Below, piece after piece: positions 9,201 through 42,243 of a stretch of DNA of 64,000 nt. Made by a program: the position numbers and the translations under genes. The DNA comes from an uncultured Candidatus Saccharibacteria bacterium. Its GTDB lineage: Bacteria > Patescibacteriota > Saccharimonadia > Saccharimonadales > CAZDQS01. The notes beneath the pieces are model-generated. The model was given only the letters and a program-made list of their open reading frames with translations, did not search any database and was not told the DNA's origin. How positions within the stretch are numbered: position 1 is the first letter of the stretch; each line of letters begins with the position of its first letter. The stretch covers positions 21,988 through 85,987 of the forward strand of contig CAZDQS010000003.1 in assembly GCA_964507855.1 (NCBI GenBank), in the 5' to 3' direction.

Positions 9201-9204
9201 ACTA

Positions 9205-10994: not shown

Positions 10995-11016
10995 ACTACC
11001 AGCGTACATCTGGTCT

Positions 11017-11054
11017 AAAACGACACTCAAGACTCCTTGGGTGTCGTTTTGCTG
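11017..11054 (+). terminator. intrinsic terminator directly after rpsJ
   Basis: 10-bp stem AAAACGACAC/GTGTCGTTTT (11017-11026 with 11041-11050), then a T-run. Confidence 0.6.
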
Positions 11055-11071
11055 TTATAAGAGTAACTGGT

Positions 11072-11371: not shown

Positions 11372-11419
11372 GTCACAATGACAAGGTGCGTGTAAAGTCA
11401 TTGTAATATTTGCTTCATA

Positions 11420-11448
11420 TTGACAGAGGTAGCAATTTTTGTTAATCT
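11420..11448 (+). promoter_or_regulatory. candidate promoter for rplC operon (TTGACA-N17-TAATCT)
   Basis: Hexamers at 11420-11425 and 11443-11448. The approximately 150-nt leader contains the hairpin TCACCGA-TACT-TCGGTGA. Confidence 0.45.
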
Positions 11449-11601
11449 GTATGGGTATCACAAATTCTTGTACTTGGTCTATTGGCAGGTCTACTGAAAT
11501 TAACAGAGGTAGAAACCACCTTTGACCAAGCATTTTTGTGTCATTTTTCAAATCACCGATACTTCGGTGACCAATAACAACCGTTAAATTAAAGGAGAAC
11601 T

Positions 11602-29454: not shown

Positions 29455-30326
29455 TGTTTGAAGAATTACTAACCCACTCTACGACCAGTGCTGCCATCCG
29501 ACAGCTCATAGCCCGGCCAACACACGCCGTGCTGCTTACCGGCCTCAGGGGCGCTGGCAAAGGCACACTGGCACGACGCTTACTGGCAACGTTTCTTGAA
29601 GTGAAGCCAGACAAGATAGAGCGATACCCATACTACCTATGTGTAACCCCGCAGAAAGGCGTCATATCGATAGATGACATCAGGCGTATACATGAATTCC
29701 TGCGGCTCAAAACCACCGGTGAACGCACGATCCGGCGCGCACTGCTCATTGAGGACGCACACCAGCTCACGCATGAAGCTCAAAATGCATTCTTAAAAAC
29801 GCTCGAGGAGCCGCCCGCAGACACCATCATACTCATGACAGCCGAAGGCGAGCATTCGCTGCTGCCGACCATCTACTCGCGCGTTCAGAAGATTACTGTG
29901 CGCGCACCGGCAAAGGAAGAGGCGGTAGAGTATTTTTCATCCAAAGGCTATCCTTCGGGTGCGATTGAGCGCGCATATCATATGAGCGACGGCCAGCCCG
30001 GTCTCATGATGGCACTTCTAGAGAAAGACGAATCACATGAAATTGTCGCCGGAATCACGACGGCAAAGTCCATCCTGCAGGCTCCACCATATCAACGCCT
30101 GGTCAAGATAGAAGAATACGCCAAGCAGCGAGATGCGCTACCACTGCTGATGTACTCGCTCGAACGTGTCAGTTACGCGGCACTGACAATTGCCGCCGAG
30201 AAGGGCAATGGCAAAGAACTTCGGCGCTGGCATGAAACCCTGAAGAAAGTTACGTGGAGCAAGCAGCAGCTGCCACGGAACCCAAACGTGAAATTGCTCT
30301 TGGCCGATCTGCTTATGGCGCTGTGA
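29451..30326 (+). CDS. holB: DNA polymerase III delta-prime subunit
   Basis: 291 aa, AAA+ clamp-loader-like (LLTGLRGAGKGTLA, SRVQK sensor region). Confidence 0.8.
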   Translation: MMFEELLTHSTTSAAIRQLIARPTHAVLLTGLRGAGKGTLARRLLATFLEVKPDKIERYPYYLCVTPQKGVISIDDIRRIHEFLRLKTTGERTIRRALLIEDAHQLTHEAQNAFLKTLEEPPADTIILMTAEGEHSLLPTIYSRVQKITVRAPAKEEAVEYFSSKGYPSGAIERAYHMSDGQPGLMMALLEKDESHEIVAGITTAKSILQAPPYQRLVKIEEYAKQRDALPLLMYSLERVSYAALTIAAEKGNGKELRRWHETLKKVTWSKQQLPRNPNVKLLLADLLMAL

Positions 30327-30342
30327 TATAATATCCACGAAC

Positions 30343-30996
30343 ATGATTGAGCTTGCTCTGGTTGTTGGATTTGGAATTATTGCCCTCAGGAACGTCAAGG
30401 TGCATGATGACGAACTGTCTGAGTTTCCGAGAAAACTTGGTGATAAGCTCGGCAAGCTGTGGGATATTGCCCACCAAGGCATGCGTGAGAACCGCTTCCT
30501 GCGAGCCGAAAAAGCACTGCTCACCATCCTCAAAATTGACGAGAAAAATGCTGCTGCCTACAACCGTCTCGGCATCCTGTACGCCAAACAAAAGGAGTAC
30601 AAAGATGCTATCGATTGCTTTGAGATTGCCTCAAGTATCGAACCGACTGCATCGAGCCTGCACAACCTCGGGCTTATCTATTATGAGACAGAAAATTATG
30701 AAAAAGCTGCGGCGGCGTTTGAGATGGCACTCAAGCAAGAGGGCAACCTTGCCGCTCGTCACATTGCCTATGCGAAGGTTCAAGAGAAGTTGGGTCGTGA
30801 CAGGATAATGATCGAGGAGCTTGAAAAGGCCGCCGAGCTGGAGCCTACGCAAGAAACGTACGAATTGCTGCAACGCGCCTATGAAAGTCGCGGCATGCAG
30901 GCTGAGGCCGACGAAGTTGCCAGCAAGCTCGAGAAGCTTATTATGCCAACCGGGCGCCGCAAGCGCATTATGCGGCCCCGACGGGTTGTTATCTAG
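30343..30996 (+). CDS. TPR-repeat protein with N-terminal membrane anchor
   Basis: 217 aa with a hydrophobic N-terminus and repeated TPR-like units (AAYNRLGILYAKQKEYKDAIDCFEIA...). Confidence 0.8.
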   Translation: MIELALVVGFGIIALRNVKVHDDELSEFPRKLGDKLGKLWDIAHQGMRENRFLRAEKALLTILKIDEKNAAAYNRLGILYAKQKEYKDAIDCFEIASSIEPTASSLHNLGLIYYETENYEKAAAAFEMALKQEGNLAARHIAYAKVQEKLGRDRIMIEELEKAAELEPTQETYELLQRAYESRGMQAEADEVASKLEKLIMPTGRRKRIMRPRRVVI

Positions 30997-31001
30997 GCCG
31001 T

Positions 31002-32030
31002 CTAGTACCAGAGTTTTGACATTGCAAAATATAGCTTGCGGTAGGCGAGCTCTAGCTTTGGCCACACTTTATAGCTGCTGCTCAAAGGGAGTTCGTAAGC
31101 AGGCATCATATGGGTTACGTCGCGGGTATATGCGGTCTTAAAGATGTAAATACCTTTCATTCGGCTGCGTTCATAGTCAGCCGGATTGGGAATACCGCCT
31201 AAGTCAAATGTGGTATAGCCACCTTGCTTCAGATTCTTGGCAATTTCCCACAACAGTAGCCGTGGTCCGTAATGAGCAGCTTTGCTGGTAACCGAAGCGC
31301 CGTCCTTGTACCACGCCATTGTGCCGGTTGCGTCCGTCACGACAATTGCACCGGCGATGACGTCATTATCATGTTTTGCAAAGAATAACTTCAGCTGTCC
31401 AGCTTGTCGGAAGCTTTCCCAAAACTTCATAACAAAGGTTTTGTTTCGTATTGAGAAGTCTTTGCGCTTGGAGGTGTCGCGCAGCAAAGCGTACATTGTT
31501 TCAAGATTATCAGTAGTTGGGTCAACCTCCTCAACCTGTACGCCGTCTTTTGTTGCACGGTTAAGTTCGTTGCGGGCACGCTTCTTCATGCCCGCCCGGA
31601 GCGCTTCAACAGATTGCCGCAGATCAATGCGCACGGTGTATTCGTACTGGGTTATGCGTGCCGGTTTCCAGCCCGCCTGTTCAAACATGCGCACTAAATC
31701 ATCGTTGTGCGCCGTACAGGACTCGAGTTTGCAGCAGATGTTGTTGCCGCGGACTTTCTTGACTTTTTCTGTTAGTTCCTTGAGCTCTTCAAGTGAAACG
31801 GGTACAAACCCTGGTATGAACAATACCGATCCAGCCGGCGTTCGGCGGCGAAAATATCGAACAGTACGGGTTGCTAGTGATATGTCGCCAGGCTTCCATG
31901 CAGATCGTTCACGCACCTTTGCCCAGCTGTCTGATTGGAGATAGTGTTCGTATGGTACAGCAACAGTAGCCGGTGCATCCGGTTTGTTGGCTTCGCTCTT
32001 GCTTGATACTACGGCCTCATGTGCTGTCAC
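31002..32030 (-). CDS. FemAB-family peptidoglycan aminoacyltransferase (tRNA-dependent)
   Basis: 342 aa with FemAB-like blocks (KKRARNELNRATKDGV, LFFAKHDNDVIAGAIVV, WYKDGAS, FDLGGIP, GIYIFK). Confidence 0.82.
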   Translation of the reverse strand: MTAHEAVVSSKSEANKPDAPATVAVPYEHYLQSDSWAKVRERSAWKPGDISLATRTVRYFRRRTPAGSVLFIPGFVPVSLEELKELTEKVKKVRGNNICCKLESCTAHNDDLVRMFEQAGWKPARITQYEYTVRIDLRQSVEALRAGMKKRARNELNRATKDGVQVEEVDPTTDNLETMYALLRDTSKRKDFSIRNKTFVMKFWESFRQAGQLKLFFAKHDNDVIAGAIVVTDATGTMAWYKDGASVTSKAAHYGPRLLLWEIAKNLKQGGYTTFDLGGIPNPADYERSRMKGIYIFKTAYTRDVTHMMPAYELPLSSSYKVWPKLELAYRKLYFAMSKLWY

Positions 32031-32131
32031 GTGCGCTTGTTCCTTAAACGTCTACTCCGGTATTCTCCGCCAATTATTAGCACTACCAGTACTTTTTTGC
32101 AAATAATCTGGAAAGGCCCGTATATAACAGA

Positions 32132-32160
32132 TTGAAAATAATTAAGTTTTTTGCTACACT
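32132..32160 (+). promoter_or_regulatory. candidate promoter for tRNA cluster (TTGAAA-N17-TACACT)
   Basis: Hexamers at 32132-32137 and 32155-32160. An 8-bp hairpin plus T-run (32168-32195) follows immediately. Confidence 0.4.
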
Positions 32161-32209
32161 TGCACCTGTTCTTCAGCTATTGAAGAACATTTTTTACAAC
32201 CAACTCGTT

Positions 32210-32285
32210 GCCGATGTAGCTCAGTGGCTAGAGCGGCTGTTTTGTAAACAGCGGGTCGTGGGTTCGAATCCCTCCATCGGCTCCA
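32210..32285 (+). tRNA. tRNA-Thr (anticodon UGU), CCA encoded
   Basis: Manual cloverleaf: acceptor GCCGATG/CATCGGC, D-arm GCTCAGTGGCTAGAGC, anticodon loop TTTGTAA, T-arm GGGTTCGAATCCC. Confidence 0.92.
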
Positions 32286-32375
32286 TGATTAGACGCAATG
32301 CGAGAGTGTCTAATCAAGCCTCGTGTGAGGTCTAGTGAGAGAGGTGTTATACTAGAGGCCAGAAAGGCCTCTTTA

Positions 32376-32461
32376 GCAGGGGTTGTGGAGCGGTCAAACA
32401 CGACAGACTGTAAATCTGTTGGCATTCGCCTTCGGGGGTTCGAATCCCTCCCCCTGCACCA
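32376..32461 (+). tRNA. tRNA-Tyr (anticodon GUA), long variable arm, CCA encoded
   Basis: Acceptor GCAGGGG/CCCCTGC, anticodon loop CTGTAAA, long variable arm, T-loop TTCGAAT. Confidence 0.9.
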
Positions 32462-33221: not shown

Positions 33222-33290
<69 letters not shown>

Positions 33291-33296
<6 letters not shown>

Positions 33297-33410
33297 AAAC
33301 CGGACTTAAATTGGAATTGTCGCCCATTCGGGCGATTTTTCTTTGGTTGCGCGGAGCGCAAACCAAATATTTTCTTGGGGGGAATGGGATTTTGGCTCGC
33401 TGGATGCGAC
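33291..33410 (+). repeat. IR-A left copy (120 bp, perfect inverted repeat)
   Basis: Its reverse complement is identical to 34997-35116 (checked base by base). It starts with the last 6 nt of the tRNA and covers the last 34 codons plus the stop of the recombinase. Confidence 0.97.
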
Positions 33411-34826
33411 TACTTTTTTGTTTTCTAAAAACAGGTTCAACCCAAAGATTTCAATGAGCAAAGACTTTTTGGCGTTTTGGTCGGCGGAATTAGCGATTTT
33501 ACAGACAGAAAGTGCCTTATTGAGCCAATTTTGGAGCGGTTCAACCCAAACCAAATTGCCTAAATGTAAATCGCTAATTTGTTCCTCAATGGTTTTCTTT
33601 TGGCTCATAATTTCAGCTTTCTTTTGCGTGTAAATATCACGCTCCAAAACGCCGTCAAGAAAACCGTCCAGAAGTCTTTGTAATTTCTCGGACAAATGCG
33701 TGAGTTCGCCCCGCATACCGTCAATTTTGCCGTTTATCTGTGCTTTATCTGCTAATTCGTCCGCAGTAGCCCACTCACGCATTTTGTCCGCATATTCTTT
33801 GGGCAAAGTGAAGCCAGCCAACAGGTCGGATAACTGCTGATCTAAAAGCTCAGAACGAAGGGCAGGTTCAACACACTTCACAGTTTTGTTTTTACGGCTA
33901 CACCTGTAATAGACATAGTGGTGCGTGTTACCGTTTTTCTGCCGCTTCGTTTTGTTTTCAGCAGTTATCATCATTCCGCAACAGCAACGCAGTAGCCCGC
34001 AGTAGGCTTGCGGCTCTATCAAGCCTTTGGTGGGGTGGCTTCGTTGTTTTATGACGGCTTGGACTTTATCAAAAAGTTTCTTGCTAATAATAGGCGTGTG
34101 CTTACCTTCGTAAATCTCGCCACCATAAACGAAATGACCGTAATAAAACGGGTTTTTCAAGATATATTTAACTTTGTCTTTGCTGTATGGTTTGCCACCG
34201 CCAGTTTTAACGCCGCGCTCAAACAAATAATCTGATATATCTTGAAAAGTGCTTTGCCCCAAAGAATACAGAACAAAAATCGCTTCAACTAATTCGGCTT
34301 GGCGTTTATCTACTTTTACTACTTTGGCACGAGTGTCATTGTAGTAGCCGAGCGGAGCAACGCCTGGAAATTCGCCCCGCCGTACTTTCTGGCGAAGCCC
34401 ACGCTTGGTATTCTCGCTCAAATTATCTACATAGTATTTGCTCTGACCAAAAGCGATATTCAACATAAACTTGCCCTGACTGGTACTCTCAAACCAAAAG
34501 GTCTGAAACTTCAAGTCGGCAAGGTGGTTTTGGTCAAGCAAATAGATAATTTGTCCGCCGTCTATGCTATTGCGGGCAAGCCTATCAGGGTGCCACGCCA
34601 AAATGCCGTTAGCTTCGCCATTTTGTATGCGTTTTAGTACTTCGGCGAACTTCGGTCTGCCCGGAGTTTTGGCGGATTTCTTTTCAATAACAGTATCTAC
34701 CACGACTAAACCGTTATCTTTGGCATATTTCCGAAGTTCTGCCAGTTGTGCCTCAATGGACAAAACCTGCTTGTCCTCAACATCTGTACTCTTGCGAGCA
34801 TACAAAATATAGCGATTTTGGTTCAT
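33306..34826 (-). CDS. large serine recombinase (resolvase N-domain + recombinase domain + zinc ribbon + coiled coil)
   Basis: 506 aa from ATG 34826 (SD GGGAGG 9 nt upstream). Catalytic motif YARKSTDVEDKQVLSIEAQ, Cys cluster CGLLRCCCG...YYRCS, long helical C-terminus. Confidence 0.9.
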   Translation of the reverse strand: MNQNRYILYARKSTDVEDKQVLSIEAQLAELRKYAKDNGLVVVDTVIEKKSAKTPGRPKFAEVLKRIQNGEANGILAWHPDRLARNSIDGGQIIYLLDQNHLADLKFQTFWFESTSQGKFMLNIAFGQSKYYVDNLSENTKRGLRQKVRRGEFPGVAPLGYYNDTRAKVVKVDKRQAELVEAIFVLYSLGQSTFQDISDYLFERGVKTGGGKPYSKDKVKYILKNPFYYGHFVYGGEIYEGKHTPIISKKLFDKVQAVIKQRSHPTKGLIEPQAYCGLLRCCCGMMITAENKTKRQKNGNTHHYVYYRCSRKNKTVKCVEPALRSELLDQQLSDLLAGFTLPKEYADKMREWATADELADKAQINGKIDGMRGELTHLSEKLQRLLDGFLDGVLERDIYTQKKAEIMSQKKTIEEQISDLHLGNLVWVEPLQNWLNKALSVCKIANSADQNAKKSLLIEIFGLNLFLENKKVVASSEPKSHSPQENIWFALRATKEKSPEWATIPI

Positions 34827-34952
34827 AGAAATTACCTCCCAACTTAAAAGACCGCCTTGGTGCAACCAATTCAAGCAAGCCTGAACTGTCCAAGACGGTC
34901 ATTTAAGACCCTAAATAAAAACAGACTGCTTTTGTGAATTGGTTGCAACCTC

Positions 34953-34961
34953 ATTATAACA
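34953..34961 (-). promoter_or_regulatory. candidate extended -10 promoter (TGTTATAAT) for the recombinase
   Basis: The minus strand reads TGTTATAAT, about 120 nt upstream of the recombinase ATG and preceded by a small hairpin. Confidence 0.4.
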
Positions 34962-34996
34962 AAAAGCCGCCTATGGCGGGCAAAAACAAAAATGCG

Positions 34997-35116
34997 GTCG
35001 CATCCAGCGAGCCAAAATCCCATTCCCCCCAAGAAAATATTTGGTTTGCGCTCCGCGCAACCAAAGAAAAATCGCCCGAATGGGCGACAATTCCAATTTA
35101 AGTCCGGTTTTGGAGC
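34997..35116 (-). repeat. IR-A right copy (120 bp)
   Basis: Perfect reverse complement of 33291-33410. Its last 6 nt (TGGAGC) are also the first 6 nt of IR-B. Confidence 0.97.
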
Positions 35117-35376
35117 ATTTCTACCGATACGCTAGAACCTATTTTAGCAAAGACCAACAGATAAGAACAGATGTGAAATGGAAAAAAGAGGACAATTTGC
35201 GAAACCAGAAGTCAAACCCCGCCGCCTAGCGGGCAAGTCTGCCCAGCTAGCGCCCCGCCAGAAAAAGCCTTTGCATTTTTTGAGATTTCCCCCGCCGTAT
35301 TTTTTCTTTTTAGTTGAAAGGGTCGGAATTTTCTGTCGGTTCGCCTGCCAAAATTGGCAGAGGCGTCGGAGCTTCG
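35111..35376 (+). repeat. IR-B left copy (266 bp, perfect inverted repeat)
   Basis: Its reverse complement is identical to 40449-40714 (checked by eye along the full length). Contains hairpins at 35226-35250 and 35345-35360. Confidence 0.97.
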
Positions 35377-35401
35377 GAGGAAGACCTTATAAATAAGGAT
35401 A

Positions 35402-35430
35402 TTGAACTATCGATAGAGATGGAGTACTAT
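35402..35430 (+). promoter_or_regulatory. candidate promoter for the repeat-peptide operon (TTGAAC-N17-TACTAT)
   Basis: Hexamers at 35402-35407 and 35425-35430; 26 nt inside the IR-B boundary. Confidence 0.45.
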
Positions 35431-35463
35431 GTAAAATACAACGTATAGTAGTAAGGAGAGGTT

Positions 35464-35787
35464 ATGGAAAAGGGAACACAAATGTTATCAGATGTAAAAA
35501 CCGGTATTGCTTCAGACACGTGCTCACGTGTGCTCGAGGAGACCAAGGATGGTATTGCGTCAGAAACTTGTTCACGCAGCATTGAAGAGTACTTAAAGGT
35601 CGGTGCAGCAGCAATGACATGCTCACGAGTAATCGAAGCTAAGGTGGGCATCGCATCGGACACTTGCTCACGTGCCCTAGAAGAAGTTAAGAATGGGGCT
35701 GCGGCTGATACGTGCTCTCGCGTACTTGAGGACGCCGTAGAACAATCAGCTTCACTTGATCAGTATGTTAACGTATGGTCGAACTAG
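35464..35787 (+). CDS. tandem-repeat peptide/protein: 5 units of G(I/A)A(S/A)xTCSRx(L/I)E
   Basis: 107 aa with SD AAGGAGAGG. The five 15-17-aa units conserve TCSR using different synonymous codons. 13-nt overlap with the next gene. Confidence 0.7.
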   Translation: MEKGTQMLSDVKTGIASDTCSRVLEETKDGIASETCSRSIEEYLKVGAAAMTCSRVIEAKVGIASDTCSRALEEVKNGAAADTCSRVLEDAVEQSASLDQYVNVWSN

Positions 35788-36920
35788 GTCCTGAGTTCTG
35801 TCCGAATGCGAACGAACTAGCAGAGAACGTTACTAGACACTTTGAAGAAGGTGCAAACCGTGCTGAATGCGTAATAACTGGTCGGCGCGTTCTGTCCGCT
35901 GACTTCAAGCCCCCTACGAATCTTATGCCGAAAGGCACGGAAGAATGGGAGAACGACTGGTCTAGTCGCCATTTGCAGGCATATGTTTTTGATTCGATTG
36001 CAAGCACGATACAGCCTGGGCCACCGACACAAGACAAGTTAAACGCACAGACTCTCGAAAACCTAACCGACACTTTGGGCAGTCCCGACTATTTTCACGC
36101 ATATTGCGTTAGCAGAATGCTGGATCCTCAACGCGTCCTTAGACTAGCAAACGATTACCTTGAAGACTCAGCTGCATCGTACCACAAACAAAGCAAGGCA
36201 ATGCTTGGAGATGAATTTGGCTCTTTTCATGAAGAACAGTTTCAAGAAAGGCTGACCGCAGCAGTTACACAGGATGCAAATAAATATCCACATGAACGAA
36301 CCACAGGCGAAGTAGAGCGGGTAATTCGCGATCTCGGTCTTATGGCACTGGTTGATAGCTCCCGTGAATCGGCCATTGACCTTACCGTAAATGTTCCACA
36401 CCCAGAGAGTCGTACAAGTAGATTGTTTCTGGCTCGATCTAAAGGCATAGAGGCGTATCGTGGCGCGTTACATGCATTGGGTCACGCGGTATTTAGCGTA
36501 ATGGCTCCAAGAGTTGAGGATAATCTCGGCGTTAATATTGCGGCAACAGAAACTATTGCGTTTCAAGCGCAGCACGTGGCTCTGGATGGCGCGCCATCTG
36601 ATACTGCCGAATTTCTCCGATTCCTGCACCTTTATCAATCACGGCTATACGCTGTTCGTGCTATTCATGAGTCAATTAGACTTGAAAACCGTAGCCCAGA
36701 GCTTGAGACACTACAAGATTTAGGGCGCGAGCATCTTGGTCTTGTCGAGATAAGACCACATCAATTTAGGCCAAAATTAGTAGCTGTTGATTTTCTGATA
36801 GCGTTCTCAGAATATTTCCGCCAAGGTGAACTGTCGCCCGATTGGTCTGAGGTTTTAGAGCTTGCTCAAAACACAACCAATATCAAAATTACAAAGGATA
36901 TTTCACTAAAGACTAATTAG
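35775..36920 (+). CDS. hypothetical protein, gluzincin-peptidase-like with degenerate HExxH (HALGH)
   Basis: 381 aa. The segment ALHALGHAVF...(22 aa)...TETIAFQ resembles M3-type HEFGH...E spacing, but the catalytic Glu is Ala. Function uncertain. Confidence 0.7.
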   Translation: MVELGPEFCPNANELAENVTRHFEEGANRAECVITGRRVLSADFKPPTNLMPKGTEEWENDWSSRHLQAYVFDSIASTIQPGPPTQDKLNAQTLENLTDTLGSPDYFHAYCVSRMLDPQRVLRLANDYLEDSAASYHKQSKAMLGDEFGSFHEEQFQERLTAAVTQDANKYPHERTTGEVERVIRDLGLMALVDSSRESAIDLTVNVPHPESRTSRLFLARSKGIEAYRGALHALGHAVFSVMAPRVEDNLGVNIAATETIAFQAQHVALDGAPSDTAEFLRFLHLYQSRLYAVRAIHESIRLENRSPELETLQDLGREHLGLVEIRPHQFRPKLVAVDFLIAFSEYFRQGELSPDWSEVLELAQNTTNIKITKDISLKTN

Positions 36921-36957
36921 GCATTATAAGATTTAGAAAACAGAATTTATAATAAGT

Positions 36958-38796
36958 ATGATGATGACAAATAAACAAGATAGTCTGCATGCCATGCGTC
37001 ACAGCTTGGCACACATCATGGCTTCTGCAATAAAAAAGTTATGGCCAGAAGTTAAGTTCGGCGTTGGTCCGGTTGTAGAAAACGGGTTCTATTATGACGT
37101 TGATGTTAAAGGAACGAAAATCTCAGAAGGAGATTTTGATCGTATTGAAGCAGAGATGCAAAAGATCATCAAAGAAAACCAACCGTTCAAAAGATCCGAG
37201 AAAGTTATTGATAAGGCTATAAAATGGGCTAAAGATTCAAACCAGCCATACAAAGAAGAGCTTTTGAACGACCTTAAGCGTTCAGGTACTACAGTAGCCA
37301 AGGATCTCAATGAGGATGAAATAGGTACTTTCACAGAGGGTAGTAGTGAAGTAGACAGGGTGTCATTCTTTACAAACGGTGATTTTACAGATCTGTGCAG
37401 AGGGCCTCATGTAGATTCAACAGGTGAAGTAGGCAAGTTTAAATTGATGCGAATCGCTGGTGCGTACTGGCGAGGCAAAGATAATAATCCGCAGATGCAA
37501 CGTATTTATGGGGTAGCATTTGAAACAGACAAGGAGTTGCGCCAATACTTGAGCATGCTGGAAGAGGCAAAAAAACGCGATCATCGGAAACTTGGTAAAG
37601 AGTTAGAACTTTTCATGTTTCATGATACAGCTCCCGGAATGCCGTACTGGCTTCCAAAAGGTGTAGTTATATATAATCAACTCGTAGACTTTTGGCGCAA
37701 AGAGCATCAGATGAGAGATTATCAGGAGATTGTATCACCTATTCTGAATAAAAAAGAGCTTTATCAGACCTCTGGGCATTACGATCACTATTGGCAGGAA
37801 ATGTTTACTACTGAGGAAAATGAAGATGGCGAAGTTTATGGGGTAAAGGCTATGAATTGCCCAAACGCAATGGTCGTTTTTGGATCAAAGCAGCGATCAT
37901 ATCGTGATCTGCCGCTTAGGCTTAGCGACACAGACACACTGCACAGAAATGAACGTTCAGGTACATTGAATGGGCTATTGAGGGTTCGAGAATTCAGACA
38001 GGACGATGCGCATATCTTTGTCGAGCCCAACCAGATAAAAGAAGAATATGAAAAGATCCTTGAGATAACTGAAAAATTCTACTCGATTTTTAACATGTCA
38101 TACTCATTTAGACTCGGTACGCGGCCTGATAAATTCATGGGGGATGAAAAACTTTGGGATGAAGCAGAGTCGACACTTGAGGACATATTAAAAGATAGTG
38201 GAAAAGACTATTTTATCGAGGAGGGCGACGGCGCATTCTACGGGCCAAAGATAGATATCCTGATGAAAGATGCACTCGGTCGTTCATGGCAAATGGGAAC
38301 CATGCAATTGGACTTCCAGCAGCCTCTCAGATTTGACCTGAAATACACAGACAGAGATGGATTAGAGAAGACCCCAATTGTGATTCATAGAGTTATCTAC
38401 GGATCGCTGGAGCGTTTTATAGGTATACTTATTGAGCATTTAGCCGGTAAGTTTCCTGTTTGGCTTGCGCCGGAACAAGTTAGATTAATTACCGTTAATC
38501 AAGAGCCTCCAACAGTCGAATTCGCGAATAAGATGCTTGCAAGAGCTAGAGATTTGGGCGTACGAGCCAGTGTTGATAATAATAACGAATCAGTAGGCAA
38601 AAAGATTCGTCAAGCGGAGATTGAGAAAGTTCCATACACGATCGTAGTAGGCGAGCAAGAAATCGCGAGCAATGAGGTATTGCCCCGCATACGTAAAGAC
38701 CTAGTTGACGCTAAAGACGTAAAAAAAATTATGTCTGATGACTTCCTGAGACAGGTTGCGGAAGAATCGGCACTTCGCGTTACACCTTTTGCTTAA
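36958..38796 (+). CDS. thrS: threonine--tRNA ligase lacking the N-terminal TGS domain
   Basis: 612 aa. Editing motifs RHSLAH and CRGPH, MNCP, HRNERSG...RVREFRQDDAHIF, HRVIYGSLERF, and an anticodon-binding C-terminus. AT-rich with AGA codons. Confidence 0.93.
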   Translation: MMMTNKQDSLHAMRHSLAHIMASAIKKLWPEVKFGVGPVVENGFYYDVDVKGTKISEGDFDRIEAEMQKIIKENQPFKRSEKVIDKAIKWAKDSNQPYKEELLNDLKRSGTTVAKDLNEDEIGTFTEGSSEVDRVSFFTNGDFTDLCRGPHVDSTGEVGKFKLMRIAGAYWRGKDNNPQMQRIYGVAFETDKELRQYLSMLEEAKKRDHRKLGKELELFMFHDTAPGMPYWLPKGVVIYNQLVDFWRKEHQMRDYQEIVSPILNKKELYQTSGHYDHYWQEMFTTEENEDGEVYGVKAMNCPNAMVVFGSKQRSYRDLPLRLSDTDTLHRNERSGTLNGLLRVREFRQDDAHIFVEPNQIKEEYEKILEITEKFYSIFNMSYSFRLGTRPDKFMGDEKLWDEAESTLEDILKDSGKDYFIEEGDGAFYGPKIDILMKDALGRSWQMGTMQLDFQQPLRFDLKYTDRDGLEKTPIVIHRVIYGSLERFIGILIEHLAGKFPVWLAPEQVRLITVNQEPPTVEFANKMLARARDLGVRASVDNNNESVGKKIRQAEIEKVPYTIVVGEQEIASNEVLPRIRKDLVDAKDVKKIMSDDFLRQVAEESALRVTPFA

Positions 38797-39476
38797 GGGT
38801 ACTGTACTCTATCGCGTACAACCAGCGGTTCCTTTTCCCAGTCAGTTGGTGGGAGGTTTTCGCCAACAAACCAGCGTGCCTGTCGCGTGCTTGCCTCTCG
38901 TTGAAATAGTGAAGGAGCCTCCTCGTTTGTGCGGTGATCTACGAGTGATGGACATGTGTACCAGCAGCGAATCTGCTGCCTAGCAAAATACCATGCGATG
39001 CGACGTTCATCGCGCTCGGTTTCAGTAACAGAATCACACCATTCGAGCATTTCCGGAATAGACGCCACAGGTAATGCATAGGCAACGCCCCACCATGGGC
39101 CTTCCATCTCCAGCCAGGGTACATCGCTTTGCTTTACTCTATCCAATGCTGGCGCAACAATTTCTGCGTGTGGTCGTGGTCCGCCCAAATAAAATGAAAC
39201 TGGGCGGATCGGATCCACGCTTCGGAGTGCCGCCTCGGCATGAATCTGAAAATCCCGGCAAAGTATCGCATCATCTTGGACTACAAGATGCCATAGACAA
39301 GCGCGACCGTATGCGCGCCAAGCACGCGATGCTGTATCCCAAATTCCTTTTTCTTGATCCAAATGCACTTTAGCATCTGGGAGTTGTTTTTGAAGCTCGT
39401 CAACAAATTTCATTCGTGATGGATGTGCCATTATTGCAGTTGACAGGAAGGGCTTCTCACTCTCCAGTATTTTCAT
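38793..39476 (-). CDS. hypothetical protein (227 aa), possible GT-A-fold nucleotide-sugar transferase
   Basis: Clean ORF. The hint is only VVQDDAIL (DxD-like). Its stop overlaps the thrS stop within TTAA, and its start overlaps the upstream gene by 4 nt. Confidence 0.7.
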   Translation of the reverse strand: MKILESEKPFLSTAIMAHPSRMKFVDELQKQLPDAKVHLDQEKGIWDTASRAWRAYGRACLWHLVVQDDAILCRDFQIHAEAALRSVDPIRPVSFYLGGPRPHAEIVAPALDRVKQSDVPWLEMEGPWWGVAYALPVASIPEMLEWCDSVTETERDERRIAWYFARQQIRCWYTCPSLVDHRTNEEAPSLFQREASTRQARWFVGENLPPTDWEKEPLVVRDRVQYP

Positions 39477-40342
39477 GATGTTGCATCCTCAAAATCCACC
39501 AATATACCAACGCTCGCCCCTATTGGGTTATTTGGGCGAGGGAAAAGGACTCCCATATTAGTGCTAGTAGCACGAAGCTCTTTTTGACCATCCCAGGCAA
39601 ATGGGCCCTGTTGGAGGCGCACACCAGACTTAACGTGTGGAGCATAGTCAAATTGATCCGATTCGCGGATAATTAACTCTCTAGCTTGTGCGATAGGCGG
39701 TTTTGGCGTCAGTACCTCACCGGTATCCTTGATCCCCGTGAGCGATAAAAATCTACGGACGGCGCTTCGTGCAATAGCGGTGTTATCATCTTTATGATAG
39801 CCCAGTTCAAGGCAAACCCCAATCCTCCCGAGCTCGTACATATATGCATCTGATGTACCCGGTTCGACAGTCTCTAGACCATGAACGAACAGATCAGCGC
39901 CAAGAGACGTAGCCACATGCGACGATAAAACTGAAGCTATTGCAACTGACCCTAGGCCAATATCTTTATGCTCGTGTAGGTCTAAGCAGGCATCAGATTC
40001 GTTTAGAATATCCATTATTAAACGGGCTGACTTAAACTCGGGCTGAGGGCCGGTTTCAGTTTCGGTAGTGGTTAGGATTGTATTAAGATTCAAGTTCACT
40101 GCTCTTACGCCAATTTCATAAGCAGTAGGGTTAGCAATTATGATTGATAGCGAGCCTCTGTCTAGTTCTAGCTTTTCTCGGTCATTCAGTATATTCTCGA
40201 GAAAACGAACCGCAGACGGTTCGTCACCGTGCATTCCGCCAATAATCGCTACGTTTGGCCCTGAGACACCAGAATCAAGCACTTTAACTATAGGCGGCTC
40301 GATATTATATATCGCTTGGCCAGAGTTTTCCTTGTTTGGCAT
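39473..40342 (-). CDS. AstE/AspA-family zinc deacylase (succinylglutamate desuccinylase/aspartoacylase-like, M14-related)
   Basis: 289 aa with IIGGMHGDEP (His/Glu zinc ligands) and CLDLHEH (third His region). Confidence 0.78.
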   Translation of the reverse strand: MPNKENSGQAIYNIEPPIVKVLDSGVSGPNVAIIGGMHGDEPSAVRFLENILNDREKLELDRGSLSIIIANPTAYEIGVRAVNLNLNTILTTTETETGPQPEFKSARLIMDILNESDACLDLHEHKDIGLGSVAIASVLSSHVATSLGADLFVHGLETVEPGTSDAYMYELGRIGVCLELGYHKDDNTAIARSAVRRFLSLTGIKDTGEVLTPKPPIAQARELIIRESDQFDYAPHVKSGVRLQQGPFAWDGQKELRATSTNMGVLFPRPNNPIGASVGILVDFEDATS

Positions 40343-40448
40343 CCACTTTCATACTTCTGCCTACCCAATAATTATACGATTAATATGCATACATTGTAGC
40401 ATACTCCAGAGCTGAAGTTGCGGTTACGATAAGTTTTGCATGTCGCTG

Positions 40449-40714
40449 CGAAGCTCCGACGCCTCTGCCAATTTTGGCAGGCGAACCGACAGAAAATTCC
40501 GACCCTTTCAACTAAAAAGAAAAAATACGGCGGGGGAAATCTCAAAAAATGCAAAGGCTTTTTCTGGCGGGGCGCTAGCTGGGCAGACTTGCCCGCTAGG
40601 CGGCGGGGTTTGACTTCTGGTTTCGCAAATTGTCCTCTTTTTTCCATTTCACATCTGTTCTTATCTGTTGGTCTTTGCTAAAATAGGTTCTAGCGTATCG
40701 GTAGAAATGCTCCA
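40449..40714 (-). repeat. IR-B right copy (266 bp)
   Basis: Perfect reverse complement of 35111-35376. Ends with GCTCCA, identical to the tRNA-Thr(GGU) 3' end. Confidence 0.97.
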
Positions 40715-40718
40715 TTAG

Positions 40719-40747
40719 TTGATGCTATATGGTTTTCGTGGTATAAT
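40719..40747 (+). promoter_or_regulatory. candidate promoter (TTGATG-N17-TGgTATAAT) for PspC-domain gene/rpmG
   Basis: Hexamers at 40719-40724 and 40742-40747 with a TG extension. Begins 5 nt after the island boundary. Confidence 0.55.
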
Positions 40748-40764
40748 AATAAGTATTAATTCAG

Positions 40765-40989
40765 ATGGGTGGCCTTTACATGCAAAAGAAGCTCTACCGG
40801 AGTCGAACAGATAGGATGCTCACAGGACTTTGTGGGGGCATCGCGAAGTACCTCGGTGTCGATGCAACCTTGGTGCGTCTCGTGATGGTACTGCTGGAAT
40901 TTGCAACGGTTGGACTTCTTATCATCGGTTATTTCATCATAGCTATAATCGTTCCCCTGGAACCAGAAGGAGATAATATAAATGGCTAA
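40765..40989 (+). CDS. PspC-domain membrane protein
   Basis: 74 aa (or 69 aa from ATG 40780) with the motif LYRSRTDRMLTGLCGGIAKYLGVDATLVRL plus one TM segment. Confidence 0.8.
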   Translation: MGGLYMQKKLYRSRTDRMLTGLCGGIAKYLGVDATLVRLVMVLLEFATVGLLIIGYFIIAIIVPLEPEGDNING

Positions 40990-41185
40990 AAAAGGCGAGA
41001 AGCGAAAAACAATAGGTCTTGTGAGCGAAGAAAGCGGCCACAGGACATATTACACGCGCAAAAACACAATGAATACCCCCGATAAGCTACGCCTTCGCAA
41101 GTATGACCCAGTGCTGCGCAAGCACGTCTGGTACTCAGAAACCAAGAAAAACCTTGGCCGCAACGAAGTCAAGCCGAAGAAGTAA
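40982..41185 (+). CDS. rpmG: 50S ribosomal protein L33 (cysteine-free form)
   Basis: 67 aa with ...YYTRKNTMNTPDKLRLRKYDPVLRKHVWYSETKK. No Cys residues. Confidence 0.9.
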   Translation: MAKKGEKRKTIGLVSEESGHRTYYTRKNTMNTPDKLRLRKYDPVLRKHVWYSETKKNLGRNEVKPKK

Positions 41186-41204
41186 TAACGTTACTATATA
41201 AAAC

Positions 41205-41232
41205 AATCGCCTTCTCGTGAGGCGATTTTTTA
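41205..41232 (+). terminator. intrinsic terminator after rpmG
   Basis: Stem ATCGCCT/AGGCGAT with a 7-nt loop, then TTTTTTATT. Confidence 0.65.
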
Positions 41233-41233
41233 T

Positions 41234-41254
41234 TGGCAGGGGAGACAGGACTTG
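41234..41254 (-). repeat. 21-nt duplicate of the tRNA-Trp 3' end (T-loop to CCA)
   Basis: TGGCAGGGGAGACAGGACTTG is identical to 41399-41419, in direct orientation, 165 bp apart. Confidence 0.85.
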
Positions 41255-41368
41255 GCTCTTTATGCTCGCTCAAAGATTGATCTTTTCGCTCGGTCAAGCA
41301 AGCAAAACTCAAATGTCCACCGGACATTTTCGACCCAAGGGTTCAAATCTGTCCCGCCTCCAGAACAC

Positions 41369-41389
41369 AAAAACCACCAAAAGGTGGCT
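41369..41389 (-). terminator. candidate terminator downstream of tRNA-Trp
   Basis: The minus strand reads GCCACC-TTTT-GGTGGT followed by TTTTT. Confidence 0.45.
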
Positions 41390-41398
41390 TCCATGTTC

Positions 41399-41474
41399 TG
41401 GCAGGGGAGACAGGACTTGAACCTGCGACACCCGGTTTTGGAGACCGGTGCTCTACCAACTGAGCTACTCCCCT
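41399..41474 (-). tRNA. tRNA-Trp (anticodon CCA), CCA end encoded
   Basis: The reverse complement folds as: acceptor AGGGGAG/CTCCCCT, D-arm GCTCAGTTGGTAGAGC, anticodon loop CTCCAAA, T-arm GCAGGTTCAAGTCCTGT. Confidence 0.92.
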
Positions 41475-41583
41475 TTACTAAGCCGCTTACCGCGACTTTT
41501 CCGTCGGAGATAATTATAACTTACAAGTCTTCAAGGGTAAAACTTTTCAACAGATGGCGAATCTGTTATACAATAATATATCA

Positions 41584-42243
41584 ATGAGTAAGATCGTCCT
41601 GAACAAACCACTTCTGATTATGCTGTACGGCTTCCCGGGGGCAGGCAAAACACATTTTGCGCGCCAGCTTACTGAGACGGTCAGTGCTGCACATATCCAG
41701 GGAGATCGCATCCGTGCGCAGCTTTTTGAGCAGCCTCGCTACGACAAGCAAGAGAACGAGATTGTCAGCCACCTGATGGAATATATGGCAGAAGAGTTCC
41801 TCAACGCTGGCGTGAGTGTTGTTTTTGATGCCAATGCGCTAAGGCTTGTGCAGCGCCGCAGCTTGCGCGACATAGCCCGCCGGGCAAAAGCTGAGCACCT
41901 GCTGATATGGCTTCAGATTGACCAAGAAAGCGCCTATGGTCGTGTTTCCCGCCGTGACCGACGCCGTGCCGATGACAAATATGCTGCCCCGTACGACCAG
42001 AAATCGTTCCAGGCCTACATCGCCGCCATGCAGAACCCCCAGAATGAAGAATACGTCGTTATCAGCGGCAAACACACGTTCAATACCCAGCGTAGCGCTG
42101 TCGTGAAACGGCTCTACGAGCTAGGTCTTATCACAGCTGATAGCGCTTCTACCAACGTCGTCAAACCAGGACTCGTAAACTTAATACCCAATCCTGCCGC
42201 CGGCCGCGTCGACATGACGCGCCGGAATATCGTCATACGGTAA
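41584..42243 (+). CDS. P-loop ATPase/kinase (AAA_33 / zeta-toxin-like fold)
   Basis: Walker A GFPGAGKTHFA. Start taken at ATG 41584 (MSKIVLNKP...), with TAATAT 5 nt upstream. Confidence 0.75.
   Translation: MSKIVLNKPLLIMLYGFPGAGKTHFARQLTETVSAAHIQGDRIRAQLFEQPRYDKQENEIVSHLMEYMAEEFLNAGVSVVFDANALRLVQRRSLRDIARRAKAEHLLIWLQIDQESAYGRVSRRDRRRADDKYAAPYDQKSFQAYIAAMQNPQNEEYVVISGKHTFNTQRSAVVKRLYELGLITADSASTNVVKPGLVNLIPNPAAGRVDMTRRNIVIR

What the first reader, a model, noticed from the sequence alone, without database searches (positions are those of the whole stretch)
33291..40714. 7.4-kb insertion at tRNA-Thr(GGU) made of two abutting modules, each bounded by perfect long inverted repeats that share a 6-bp GCTCCA core with the tRNA end
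Seen directly:
(i) The last 6 nt of tRNA-Thr(GGU), GCTCCA (33291-33296), recur inverted (TGGAGC, 35111-35116) and direct (GCTCCA, 40709-40714).
(ii) 33291-33410 and 34997-35116 are a perfect 120-bp inverted repeat (IR-A) enclosing only a large serine recombinase gene.
(iii) 35111-35376 and 40449-40714 are a perfect 266-bp inverted repeat (IR-B) enclosing five genes.
(iv) IR-A and IR-B abut and overlap by exactly the 6-bp core.
(v) Hand counts of single 60-nt lines give 35-43% GC in the recombinase and thrS versus about 57% in rpoC and rplB. Arg is often AGA inside the island but CGY outside.
(vi) Five nt right of 40714, a TTGATG-N17-TATAAT promoter and housekeeping genes resume.

Inference: an element integrated at the tRNA 3' end, with attL = tRNA-core-A and attR = B'-core-flank. 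The central junction A'-core-B is then the exact reverse complement of the reconstructed attP (B'-core-A). So the island either carries an intact inverted attP-like site, or it is two adjacent invertible modules using one crossover core. I do not know of a described serine-recombinase element with this three-core, double-palindromic layout.
Basis: partly seen in the sequence, partly recalled or inferred. Interest (0 to 1): 0.85.

Follow-up and report, generated by a model that had tools for sequence, protein, structure and literature searches.

The report
tRNA-targeting serine-recombinase element with duplicated inverted attP
The 7.4-kb insertion is real: it belongs to a large, apparently undescribed family of small mobile elements in ultra-small (CPR) bacteria that insert at the ends of tRNA genes using a large serine recombinase and always carry a second, inverted copy of their own attachment site in the middle.

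Summary
All six sequence observations hold exactly. tRNA-Thr(GGU) ends at 33296. IR-A is perfect for 120 bp and IR-B for 266 bp. They overlap on one 6-bp core, which recurs directly at 40709-40714. GC and Arg codon use are foreign.

It is not an artefact. The same grammar (tRNA | core-A | recombinase | A'-core'-B | cargo | B'-core | flank) recurs in over 100 independent assemblies, mostly Saccharibacteria and other Patescibacteria. These sit at 28 tRNA isoacceptors, with recombinases down to about 40% identity.

One 5,178-bp element occurs with 2 mismatches at two different tRNA-Thr genes. Identity starts and stops at the cores, so the whole double-repeat unit moves as one piece.

The B arm carries a GAAC motif 4-5 bp further from the crossover than the tRNA T-loop GAAC. 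That is the known attP-versus-attB offset of serine integrases.

Best reading (inferred): the free form is a circle with two inverted copies of a roughly 390-bp attP region, integrated through one copy. One locus (L143) has both modules flipped, as use of the other copy predicts.

No conserved directionality-factor gene exists. Why attP is duplicated and kept identical is unknown. I found no published description. This is a new variant of a known kind.

The parts
33222..33296 (+). tRNA-Thr(GGU), the target gene. Its last 6 nt (33291-33296, GCTCCA) form the left core, so this junction is attL (tRNA half-site plus A half-site).
   Evidence: ARAGORN; Rfam; sequence
33291..33410 (.). IR-A outer arm: 120 nt perfect, imperfect out to 33424. 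It holds the P'-type half-site, two hairpins and the last ~35 codons of the recombinase ORF.
   Evidence: arm alignment
33319..33336 (+). Terminator-like hairpin with a T-run inside arm A, oriented from the core inward. It would stop read-through from the tRNA. Its mirror copy lies at 35088-35071 on the minus strand.
   Evidence: compensatory changes among elements
33306..34826 (-). Large serine recombinase gene (506 aa). Relative to its 531-aa homologues, one A is missing from an A-run near 33340, so the ORF stops at 33306 instead of reading on into the antisense tRNA.
   Evidence: Pfam; NCBIfam; homologue alignment; PDB matches
34827..34996 (-). Unique region upstream of the recombinase, presumed to hold its promoter and operator. 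It contains a 20-nt imperfect inverted repeat (34861-34880 / 34928-34947).
   Evidence: I8; function inferred
34997..35116 (.). IR-A inner arm (A').
35111..35116 (.). Central core TGGAGC, shared by IR-A and IR-B. A'-core'-B is the reverse complement of the reconstructed attP (B'-core-A).
35111..35376 (.). IR-B inner arm (266 nt perfect). It holds the P-type half-site with the conserved GCTAGAACC(Y)ATTTT motif, three CCCCGCC boxes and a covarying hairpin.
35464..35787 (+). Cargo ORF of 107 aa with an internal repeat of the type (D/E)TCSR(V/A/S)(L/I)EE. No family match.
35775..36920 (+). Cargo ORF of 381 aa. No family match.
36958..38796 (+). Cargo thrS, threonine--tRNA ligase (612 aa).
   Evidence: Pfam; TIGR00418 632 bits against cut-off 384
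38793..39476 (-). Cargo ORF of 227 aa. No family match.
39473..40342 (-). Cargo ORF of 289 aa, similar to AstE/AspA (succinylglutamate desuccinylase / aspartoacylase family).
   Evidence: Pfam PF24827
40449..40714 (.). IR-B outer arm (B'), ending in the right core GCTCCA (40709-40714). This junction is attR (B' half-site plus host flank).
   Evidence: Logan contig L082 starts 24 nt inside this arm and runs into the same flank
40715..41185 (+). Host flank: promoter-like TTGATG-N17-TATAAT (40719-40747), a PspC-domain gene (40765-40989) and rpmG/L33 (40982-41185).

Best explanation
This is an integrated copy of a small mobile element driven by a large serine recombinase (LSR). I inferred the free form; nothing in the data shows it directly.

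Inferred free form: a circle in which a roughly 390-bp attachment region (B'-core-A) is present twice, as inverted copies. These split the circle into a recombinase segment and a cargo segment.

The LSR recombines one attP copy with the 3' end of a tRNA gene. The crossover lies within nt 72-74, around the discriminator base. Integration splits that copy into attL (tRNA-core-A) and attR (B'-core-flank). The other copy stays intact and inverted between recombinase and cargo. That accounts for the two abutting perfect inverted repeats and the three cores.

The B arm imitates the tRNA T-arm, with its GAACC motif placed 4-5 bp further out, as in attP against attB. The downstream host half-site is not conserved. 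This lets closely related recombinases use many different tRNAs and even insert next to older copies.

The long arms also carry terminator-like hairpins that would insulate the recombinase and cargo.

The two copies of each arm evolve in concert. I think this is most likely gene conversion between the inverted repeats, because identity decays at their inner edges.

Integration through the other attP copy, or recombination between the repeats, gives the flipped isomers that are occasionally seen.

Shown here: the architecture, its conservation, movement as a unit, the half-site offset and the existence of isomers.
Inferred: the circular intermediate, catalysis by the LSR, and gene conversion.
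Unknown: why attP is duplicated.
For: (1) The layout is exact in the window.

(2) The same layout appears in independent assemblies. Of 158 loci, 105 have IR-A around the LSR. In 69 a tRNA 3' end overlaps the arm on the LSR 3' side by 4-8 nt. In 26 an IR-B abuts, always on the LSR 5' side, with 4-9 nt overlap. Cargo between the B arms is 1.1-5 kb. Junction grammar is identical in 14 elements.

(3) The L001 element (6361-11538) and L003 (5082-10259) differ at 2 of 5,178 nt. They sit at tRNA-Thr(CGT) and tRNA-Thr(GGT) with unrelated flanks, and identity begins and ends at the cores.

(4) The three-way identical core, mapped onto tRNA numbering in 23 elements, intersects at nt 73-74 after I corrected by hand the 1-nt numbering offset for the two tRNAs that ARAGORN ends without CCA (the script's raw output was max 73, min 73). 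It is 72-74 if L065 is excluded.

(5) GAA starts at position 16 from the centre in 82% of tRNA half-sites. It starts at position 20 or 21 in 75% of B arms. Serine integrases place the DBD2 motif 4-5 bp closer to the centre in attB than in attP (PMC11722253).

(6) L143 has the recombinase 5' end next to the tRNA and the HTH end of its cargo at the outer arm. Both modules are flipped relative to 6 of 6 canonical relatives. This is the isomer expected from integration through the second attP copy.

(7) Arms are 100% identical within an element but 88-91% between related elements.

(8) The recombinase has Resolvase, Recombinase and Zn-ribbon domains, with an invariant YARKST serine motif.

(9) Composition and codon use are foreign to the host.
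Against: No excised circle and no empty site for this host were found. No contig in the set is circular, and the circle junction has the same sequence as the internal junction.

If both attP copies were equivalent, canonical and flipped integrants should be equally common. The ratio seen is 69:3. This needs extra selection or a mechanistic bias, neither of which I demonstrated.

No recombination directionality factor is conserved in the elements, so how excision (attL x attR) is licensed is unexplained.

The window copy lacks the usual C-terminal read-through because of a -1 frameshift and could be inactive.

Gene conversion that leaves orientation almost fixed is assumed, not shown.

Only one informative flipped locus (L143) supports the prediction that both modules flip together.
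Confidence: 0.68

Rival explanations
1. The locus is chiefly a pair of adjacent invertible (phase-variable) segments. The recombinase acts as an invertase on core sites in inverted orientation: S1 x S2 flips its own gene and S2 x S3 flips the cargo. Mobility is secondary.
For: Both segments are bounded by inverted cores inside perfect repeats. The recombinase module is flipped at a few loci (L035, L062, L143). Cargo is inverted between the related elements L013 and L074 while the recombinase module stays collinear. Short contigs L163 and L164 join the recombinase 3' end to a B arm.
Against: Orientation is almost fixed: 69 canonical against 3 flipped, and the HTH gene lies next to the central junction in 6 of 6 canonical elements. 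Because the repeats are perfect for 120-266 bp, flipping changes nothing within that distance of either gene, so no switch is evident. The enzyme is a large serine recombinase, not a Hin/Gin-type invertase. The unit clearly transposes as a whole. Walks such as L163, L164 and L095 can be graph artefacts at repeats.
Confidence: 0.15
2. The transferred form is single-stranded DNA, for example after uptake by natural competence. Pairing A with A' and B with B' folds one strand into a rod whose centre is a ready-made duplex attP. On this view the inverted duplication exists to build attP from a single strand, as in CTX-phi attP(+) or integron attC.
For: The geometry fits exactly: the two stems stack on the shared core to give B'-core-A over A'-core'-B (sequence). 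Heteroduplex repair in the stems would explain the perfect identity of the arms. Strand-specific transfer would explain the strong orientation bias. The hosts are CPR bacteria, which to my knowledge lack conjugation and rely on DNA uptake.
Against: Serine recombinases cut both strands. Recombining a stem with chromosomal attB would leave hairpin-capped chromosome ends, which then need replication and a second attL x attR-type event. This is far less parsimonious than a double-stranded circle. There is no evidence for any ssDNA-generating function in the elements. Identity decays gradually at the inner repeat edges, as expected for conversion rather than regeneration.
Confidence: 0.07
3. The double palindrome is an assembly or MDA chimera, not a real structure.
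For: Palindromic mis-walks do occur in this family. L095 is a 5.2-kb contig with 1,817-nt inverted ends. L016 and L018 end in 99-nt k-mer repeats.
Against: The same architecture, with different sequences, cargo and target tRNAs, is present in over 100 contigs from SPAdes, MEGAHIT and other assemblies, including contigs of 270-680 kb. The tRNA/element overlap is only 6 nt, too short for a k-mer join. Element-specific substitutions are present in both arms. Logan contigs from two runs match window sequence at 100%.
Confidence: 0.02

Closest known systems
Serine-integrase (large serine recombinase) integrative elements and prophages, e.g. A118/LI, SPbeta SprA, Bxb1, phiC31
   Same: The domain architecture matches: Resolvase, Recombinase (DBD1) and Zn-ribbon (DBD2). 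The sites share a short core, with no long target duplication. The P-type half-site motif lies 4-5 bp further from the centre than the B-type.
   Different: The target is the 3' end of tRNA genes, which from memory is the usual habit of tyrosine integrases rather than LSRs. Only one attB half-site (the tRNA side) is conserved. The attP region is about 390 bp with conserved accessory motifs rather than about 50 bp. It is duplicated in inverted orientation inside the element. No RDF gene is conserved. Elements are only 3.5-7.4 kb, with neither phage nor conjugation genes.
SCC elements with Ccr recombinases (SCCmec)
   Same: CcrB is the best NCBIfam match. Both are small cargo-carrying cassettes inserted site-specifically at the 3' end of a conserved gene by LSRs. 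From memory, Ccr recombinases both integrate and excise without a separate RDF.
   Different: The score is 145 bits against an equivalog cut-off of 900, so this is not a Ccr. SCC targets rlmH, not tRNAs, and has no internal inverted attachment site or long perfect inverted repeats.
Yeast 2-micron plasmid (FLP/FRT amphimeric circle)
   Same: The inferred free form has the same topology: two long perfect inverted repeats, each containing the recombinase target, divide a circle into two unique segments that exist as inversion isomers (from memory).
   Different: FLP is a tyrosine recombinase. The 2-micron plasmid replicates autonomously and does not integrate. Here the circle is inferred, no origin is known, and orientation is strongly biased.
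Tycheposons and other tRNA-targeting genomic islands
   Same: Both are small cargo islands at tRNA 3' ends in streamlined genomes. Both show serial insertion at the same tRNA: L002, L003 and L095 have remnants of an older A arm beyond the outer core.
   Different: I did not open the tycheposon preprint (10.1101/2020.12.28.424599; it appeared only in search lists). From memory these elements mainly use tyrosine recombinases, with direct repeats of the tRNA end, and I recall no internal inverted attP. I did not test this comparison.
DNA invertase systems (Hin/Gin/Cin, Min, shufflons)
   Same: Segments are bounded by inverted crossover sites next to the recombinase gene. Adjacent invertible segments share a site.
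   Different: Those systems use small serine invertases with an enhancer and Fis, or the tyrosine recombinase Rci, and 26-34-bp sites (from memory). They are not themselves integrative elements with attL and attR.

Membership tests
Large serine recombinase (serine integrase) | N-terminal resolvase-type catalytic domain with a serine nucleophile | tested here: met
   PF00239 E=3.5e-25 over residues 7-152. R11 and S13 of the YARKST motif are invariant in 9 homologues.
Large serine recombinase (serine integrase) | Recombinase domain (DBD1) followed by a zinc-ribbon domain (DBD2) | tested here: met
   PF07508 E=8e-20. PF13408 scores 24.4 bits, just under its 25.3 cut-off in the window protein, but is precomputed in most homologues. 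The protein aligns with SPbeta integrase residues 66-495.
Large serine recombinase (serine integrase) | Coiled-coil insertion in DBD2 that controls synapsis | not tested
   Residues ~340-470 look heptad-rich by eye. No coiled-coil or structure prediction was run.
Large serine recombinase (serine integrase) | attP and attB share only a short central sequence, and the DBD2 motif is 4-5 bp further out in attP half-sites | tested here: met
   The shared core is 4-9 nt, intersecting at tRNA nt 72-74. GAAC starts at position 16 in the tRNA half-site against 20/21 in the B arm, across 62 loci. The rule is cited from PMC11722253.
Large serine recombinase (serine integrase) | Element-encoded recombination directionality factor for excision | tested here: not met
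   The only parts conserved across elements are the LSR, arm A and arm B. Cargo of 23 modules shares no common gene. An RDF encoded elsewhere cannot be excluded.
Large serine recombinase (serine integrase) | Catalyses attP x attB recombination | not testable with these tools
   Needs an in vitro or in vivo assay.
tRNA-targeting integrative element / genomic island | Insertion at the tRNA 3' end with the tRNA end repeated directly at the far boundary | tested here: met
   GCTCCA lies at 33291-33296 and 40709-40714. The same holds in 14 relatives.
tRNA-targeting integrative element / genomic island | The same element occurs at different loci, or an empty site exists | tested here: met
   L001 and L003 differ by 2 mismatches in 5,178 bp at two different tRNA-Thr genes with unrelated flanks. 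An empty site for the window's own host was not found.
tRNA-targeting integrative element / genomic island | Composition differs from the host | tested here: met
   GC is 0.45 against 0.515. AGA is 22% against 2% of Arg codons.
Invertible DNA segment (inverton / Hin-Gin type) | Both orientations coexist in a population | tested here: inconclusive
   No reads were available. Across assemblies there are 69 canonical and 3 flipped recombinase modules, one pair with inverted cargo, and ambiguous short contigs.
Invertible DNA segment (inverton / Hin-Gin type) | Small serine invertase with a C-terminal HTH, short (~26 bp) sites and an enhancer | tested here: not met
   The enzyme is a 506-531-aa LSR. 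The repeats are 100-400 bp.
SCC / Ccr cassette chromosome elements | Recombinase is a CcrA, CcrB or CcrC equivalog | tested here: not met
   CcrB scores 144.9 bits against a cut-off of 900. CcrA and CcrC score 92 bits against 700 and 900.
2-micron-type amphimeric circle | A circular replicon split by two long inverted repeats that contain the recombinase target | not testable with these tools
   The topology follows from joining attL and attR in silico. No circular contig was found. No replication function was identified.

The most novel reading that the evidence does not exclude
The internal inverted attP is a functional device rather than a passenger. It could be a built-in cis-acting substitute for a directionality factor: an LSR dimer on the central attP would bridge attL and attR and license RDF-free excision. 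Or it could be the means of forming a duplex attP from a single folded DNA strand after uptake. Either would make these elements a new design of site-specific mobile element, suited to bacteria that lack conjugation, and a main vehicle of gene transfer in CPR bacteria, including housekeeping genes such as thrS, purD and purB.
Probability: 0.2. Interest if true: 0.92.

Novelty: new variant of a known kind. Interest (0 to 1): 0.8.

Why it matters
CPR/Patescibacteria have tiny genomes and, as far as I know, few recognised mobile elements. How they exchange genes is an open question.

This finding defines an abundant family: thousands of recombinase homologues in the protein database and more than 100 loci examined here. 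The elements are 3.5-7.4 kb. They carry metabolic, aminoacyl-tRNA-synthetase and restriction-modification genes, and they hop between tRNA genes.

For recombinase biology the family offers four things:
- a serine integrase clade whose attP arm mimics the tRNA T-arm;
- retargeting between tRNAs at 84-86% protein identity (L005 Cys and L007 Lys against Thr);
- tolerance of an arbitrary second attB half-site;
- no cognate RDF gene.

All of this bears on programmable integration tools.

The conserved, perfectly homogenised inverted duplicate of attP has no described counterpart in serine-recombinase elements and calls for a mechanistic explanation.

Two practical points follow. These repeats systematically break or mis-join CPR assemblies: many contigs end in the arms, and palindromic contigs occur. 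The recombinase ORFs in databases also carry spurious tails translated from antisense tRNA.

Tried and rejected
- Exact-protein look-ups of the window recombinase and of the upstream 160-aa ORF found nothing. The L33 and ThrRS look-ups found only short Logan contigs identical to the window. So I obtained no empty site and no alternative context for this host.
- A viral-contig scan with the recombinase found no relative. There is no evidence for a phage origin.
- Rfam matched nothing in the arms.
- I found no circular contigs among 165 loci. The circle junction is in any case sequence-identical to the internal junction, so pattern searches cannot tell them apart.
- I considered that the recombinase module or the cargo module is an independent simple insertion. 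I rejected this because the cores at the ends of each module are inverted, and integration of a circle by a serine recombinase cannot produce that.
- I considered whole-element inversion for L143. I rejected it because the recombinase module remains next to the tRNA.
- I considered that small ORFs inside arm B encode a conserved protein or RDF. I rejected this because conservation is at the nucleotide level, with indels and a covarying hairpin.
- I looked for a rule that cargo genes always read inward from the B arms. It does not hold: L115, L116 and L118 are divergent.
- Six literature searches for a prior description were negative within the held library.

Full report
**Observation check**

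- ARAGORN and Rfam place tRNA-Thr(GGT) at 33222-33296.
- A direct base-by-base comparison shows 33291-33410 against 34997-35116 is perfect for 120 nt, with the first mismatch at 33411.
- 35111-35376 against 40449-40714 is perfect for 266 nt, with the first mismatch at 35377.
- GCTCCA, TGGAGC and GCTCCA lie at 33291, 35111 and 40709.
- The next-best inverted repeat nearby is 56 nt at 71%.
- IR-A encloses only one gene, 33306-34826 on the minus strand. It has Resolvase, Recombinase and Zn-ribbon domains.
- IR-B encloses five ORFs, among them a thrS that passes its equivalog cut-off.
- Island GC is 0.45 against 0.515 in the flanks. AGA is 22% against 2% of Arg codons.
- A promoter-like TTGATG-N17-TATAAT follows at 40719-40747, then a PspC-domain gene and rpmG.
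- Two Logan assemblies from sibling runs match window 35298-39290 and 40685-41781 at 100%. The second starts 24 nt inside arm B', where a graph would branch.

**A family, not a one-off or an artefact**

The recombinase has thousands of homologues. Their C-termini read ...LEPRSGVEPETSS..., which is antisense tRNA. So the gene normally sits directly against a tRNA and reads into it. The window copy lacks one A in an A-run and stops 25 residues earlier.

The two closest NCBI genomes (L001, L002) have the same double inverted repeat at tRNA-Thr(CGT) and tRNA-Thr(GGT), with different cargo.

I scanned species-representative genomes and JGI metagenomes and then ran a uniform script. This gave 158 distinct loci.
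- 105 have a 40-173-nt inverted repeat around the recombinase (median 123 nt; 45 at 100% identity).
- 69 have a tRNA 3' end overlapping the arm on the recombinase 3' side by 4-8 nt.
- 26 have a second repeat of 69-418 nt abutting the other arm with 4-9 nt overlap, always on the recombinase 5' side.
- Cargo between the B arms is 1.1-5 kb.

Most loci without the repeats are cut by a contig end within a few hundred bases of the gene, or are distant homologues below 45% identity.

Hosts are overwhelmingly Saccharibacteria and other Patescibacteria. Targets are 28 isoacceptors. Many contigs end exactly in the arms. One contig (L095) is a 1.8-kb-armed palindrome. So the repeats do upset assemblers, but they are real.

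**Mobility as one unit**

L001 6361-11538 and L003 5082-10259 differ at 2 of 5,178 positions, both in unique sequence. Alignments of the two boundaries show identity starting at the outer TGGAGC and ending at the tRNA-side TGGAGC. The flanks are unrelated, and the tRNAs differ (Thr-CGT against Thr-GGT). The unit that moves is therefore core-A-recombinase-A'-core'-B-cargo-B'-core, with internal orientation preserved.

In L002, L003 and L095 the sequence beyond the outer core is a diverged remnant of an A arm. New copies therefore insert between the tRNA and an older copy.

**Attachment-site logic**

In 14 elements the three junctions have the same grammar. I mapped the three-way identical core onto tRNA numbering in 23 elements. 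The intersection is nt 73-74 after I corrected by hand the 1-nt numbering offset for the two tRNAs that ARAGORN ends without CCA (the script's raw output was max 73, min 73). It is 72-74 if L065 is set aside. So the crossover dinucleotide is at the discriminator.

Reading outward from the centre in 62 loci, the tRNA side has GAAC (T-loop antisense) starting at position 16 in 82%. The B arm has a conserved ...GCTAGAACCYATTTT... with GAA starting at 20 or 21 in 75%. Serine integrases bind their second DNA-binding domain 4-5 bp closer to the centre on attB than on attP (PMC11722253).

So the B arm behaves as a P-type half-site that mimics the tRNA T-arm. The A arm is a weaker P-type half-site. 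The host flank half-site is not conserved. That explains the many targets and the retargeting between Thr, Cys and Lys at 84-86% protein identity.

**What else is in the arms**

Arm A carries two hairpins with compensatory substitutions among elements. Each is followed by a T-run when read from the core inward. In both copies they would block transcription entering the recombinase segment. They overlap the last codons of the recombinase, where the protein sequence is poorly conserved.

Arm B carries three CCCCGCC boxes and a hairpin. Seven of the eight pairs with double compensatory changes, out of 18 predicted pairs, lie in this hairpin.

Within an element the two copies of each arm are identical. 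Between related elements they differ by 9-12%. Identity decays at the inner edges: there are 3 mismatches in the 14 nt after the perfect 120 in the window, and single mismatches at positions 104-123 of 137 in L001-L004. That pattern fits gene conversion between repeats better than fresh synthesis at each move. This is an inference.

**Cargo**

Cargo is variable and shares no common gene. It includes ThrRS, an adenylosuccinate-lyase fusion and NUDIX/HAD enzymes by Pfam match. By my reading of the ORF translations it also includes a PurD-like ligase, an SDR, DNA methyltransferases, a tyrosine-recombinase-like protein and small XRE-type HTH proteins in one subclade. There is no conserved candidate for a directionality factor.

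**Isomers**

The orientation of the recombinase module is strongly biased: 69 canonical against 3 flipped with recognisable repeats.

L143 is the one flipped locus with cargo attached. There the recombinase 5' end faces the tRNA, its 3' end reads into the central B arm, and the HTH gene lies at the far end of the cargo. In six canonical relatives the HTH gene abuts the central junction. Both modules are thus flipped in place. This is what integration of a two-attP circle through its other attP copy predicts. Inversion of the whole element does not predict it.

L013 and L074 are related elements at tRNA-Lys(TTT). Their recombinase modules are collinear but their shared SDR gene is inverted.

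Short contigs L163 and L164 join the recombinase 3' end to a B arm. This could be a flipped module, a circle or a mis-walk.

**Mechanism**

The only reading consistent with serine-recombinase chemistry is this: the element carries attP twice in inverted orientation and is integrated through one copy. A simple insertion cannot leave inverted cores at the ends of each module.

Joining attL and attR in silico gives a circle with two ~390-bp inverted repeats that separate the recombinase and cargo segments. This is the topology of the yeast 2-micron plasmid.

I put 0.68 on this model. It does not explain three things: why the duplicate exists, why orientation is biased, and how excision is licensed without an RDF. 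For the bias, I suggest (unsupported) that tRNA read-through would over-express a co-oriented recombinase and make flipped integrants unstable.

Rivals:
- two phase-variable invertons (0.15; not exclusive);
- a fold-back single-stranded intermediate that forms duplex attP (0.07);
- an artefact (0.02).

**Comparison and novelty**

By domains and site logic the enzyme is a large serine recombinase. Its nearest named family is CcrB, but far below the cut-off. PDB relatives are SPbeta integrase and catalytic-domain fragments.

It is not a Hin/Gin invertase and not a Ccr.

Several features have no counterpart that I know of or could find in six full-text searches:
- tRNA targeting by an LSR;
- an attP arm that mimics the T-arm;
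- a ~390-bp structured attP;
- the conserved, homogenised inverted duplicate of that attP;
- the lack of an RDF gene;
- the very small size.

I rate it a new variant of a known kind. It is of high interest to people working on site-specific recombination and on CPR genome evolution.

**Limits**

No reads, no empty site and no circle were available. The L143 argument rests on a single locus. Function of the arm motifs, the crossover position and gene conversion are inferred. The window copy may be inactive.

Noticed in passing
window 41234-41254 and 41399-41419; 41330-41365: The last 21 nt of tRNA-Trp (minus strand, 41399-41474) are repeated perfectly 165 bp away. Between the copies lies a fragment that looks like the 3' half of another tRNA (gggttcaaatctgtcccgcctcca). 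This may be the scar of a different integration event at tRNA-Trp.
   Followed up: no
window 35464-35787: The first cargo ORF (107 aa) is built of about five repeats of the type (D/E)TCSR(V/A/S)(L/I)EE... It has no family match.
   Followed up: no
window 35200-35260 and 40565-40625; arm B of L001, L002, L004, L006, L011, L014, L019, L074: Arm B contains a hairpin with compensatory changes at most pairs. It is flanked by invariant GCCCCGCCG / CGCCCCGCCAG boxes, with a third CCCCCGCC box downstream. Arm A has a complementary G-run (GGGGGGAA). These could be accessory protein-binding sites or a structured RNA. Rfam has no match.
   Followed up: partly
protein hits P0001-P0120, alignment: Database ORFs of this recombinase family end in 20-40 residues translated from antisense tRNA (LEPRSGVEPETSSLP...) or from arm B (HFYRNARTHFSK...). 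The C-terminal tail therefore depends on what lies beyond the core, and is probably not part of the functional protein.
   Followed up: partly
L133 149-2023: A recombinase module lies between two convergent tRNA-Ala genes (CGC on the plus strand, TGC on the minus strand), and each has a different A-arm variant. This is the outcome expected if recombination between elements at two oppositely oriented tRNAs, or the internal attP with a second tRNA, inverted a chromosome segment.
   Followed up: partly
L003 5040-14348; L001 and L019 (same genome GCA_964565615.1); L027; L104: Several contigs or genomes carry two family members at neighbouring tRNAs. L003 has one at tRNA-Thr(GGT) and one at tRNA-Tyr(GTA), about 0.8 kb apart. 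One Saccharibacteria MAG has elements at tRNA-Thr(CGT) and tRNA-Tyr.
   Followed up: partly
L095 1-5205; L016; L018: L095 is a contig with 1,817-nt perfect inverted ends around the recombinase segment. It is a palindromic mis-walk through IR-A. L016 and L018 are recombinase-only contigs that end in 99-nt inverted k-mer overlaps. These elements systematically fragment or mis-join CPR assemblies.
   Followed up: yes
record titles of L003, L006, L016-L018, L022, L031, L040, L046: Contigs carrying these elements are binned as Sphingomonadaceae, Arachnia, Clostridia, Acidobacteriota, Gammaproteobacteria, Rickettsia or Acetofilamentum. Many are short and are probably mis-binned CPR contigs, though a wider host range is not excluded.
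   Followed up: no
window 36958-38796; L001 1-718; L136 8137-9414; L001 7225-9402: Cargo includes housekeeping-type genes: thrS here, a PurD-like ligase in L136 (my reading of its translation) and an adenylosuccinate-lyase fusion in L001 (Pfam Lyase_1/ASL_C). The window thrS is 76% identical at nucleotide level over 170 nt to the chromosomal thrS near the L001 element. I could not tell whether the window host has another thrS. That a ThrRS rides in an element inserted at tRNA-Thr looks coincidental, given the cargo diversity.
   Followed up: partly
window 27569-32461 against L002 13132-16958: The left flank of the window has the same gene order as the left side of the L002 locus in an uncultured Saccharibacteria MAG: tRNA-Thr(TGT), tRNA-Tyr, a TPR protein, DNA pol III delta' and a further upstream ORF. 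Only scattered stretches match at 70-75% nucleotide identity. Both genomes have a family member at the same tRNA-Thr(GGT), with the same A-arm type but different cargo.
   Followed up: partly
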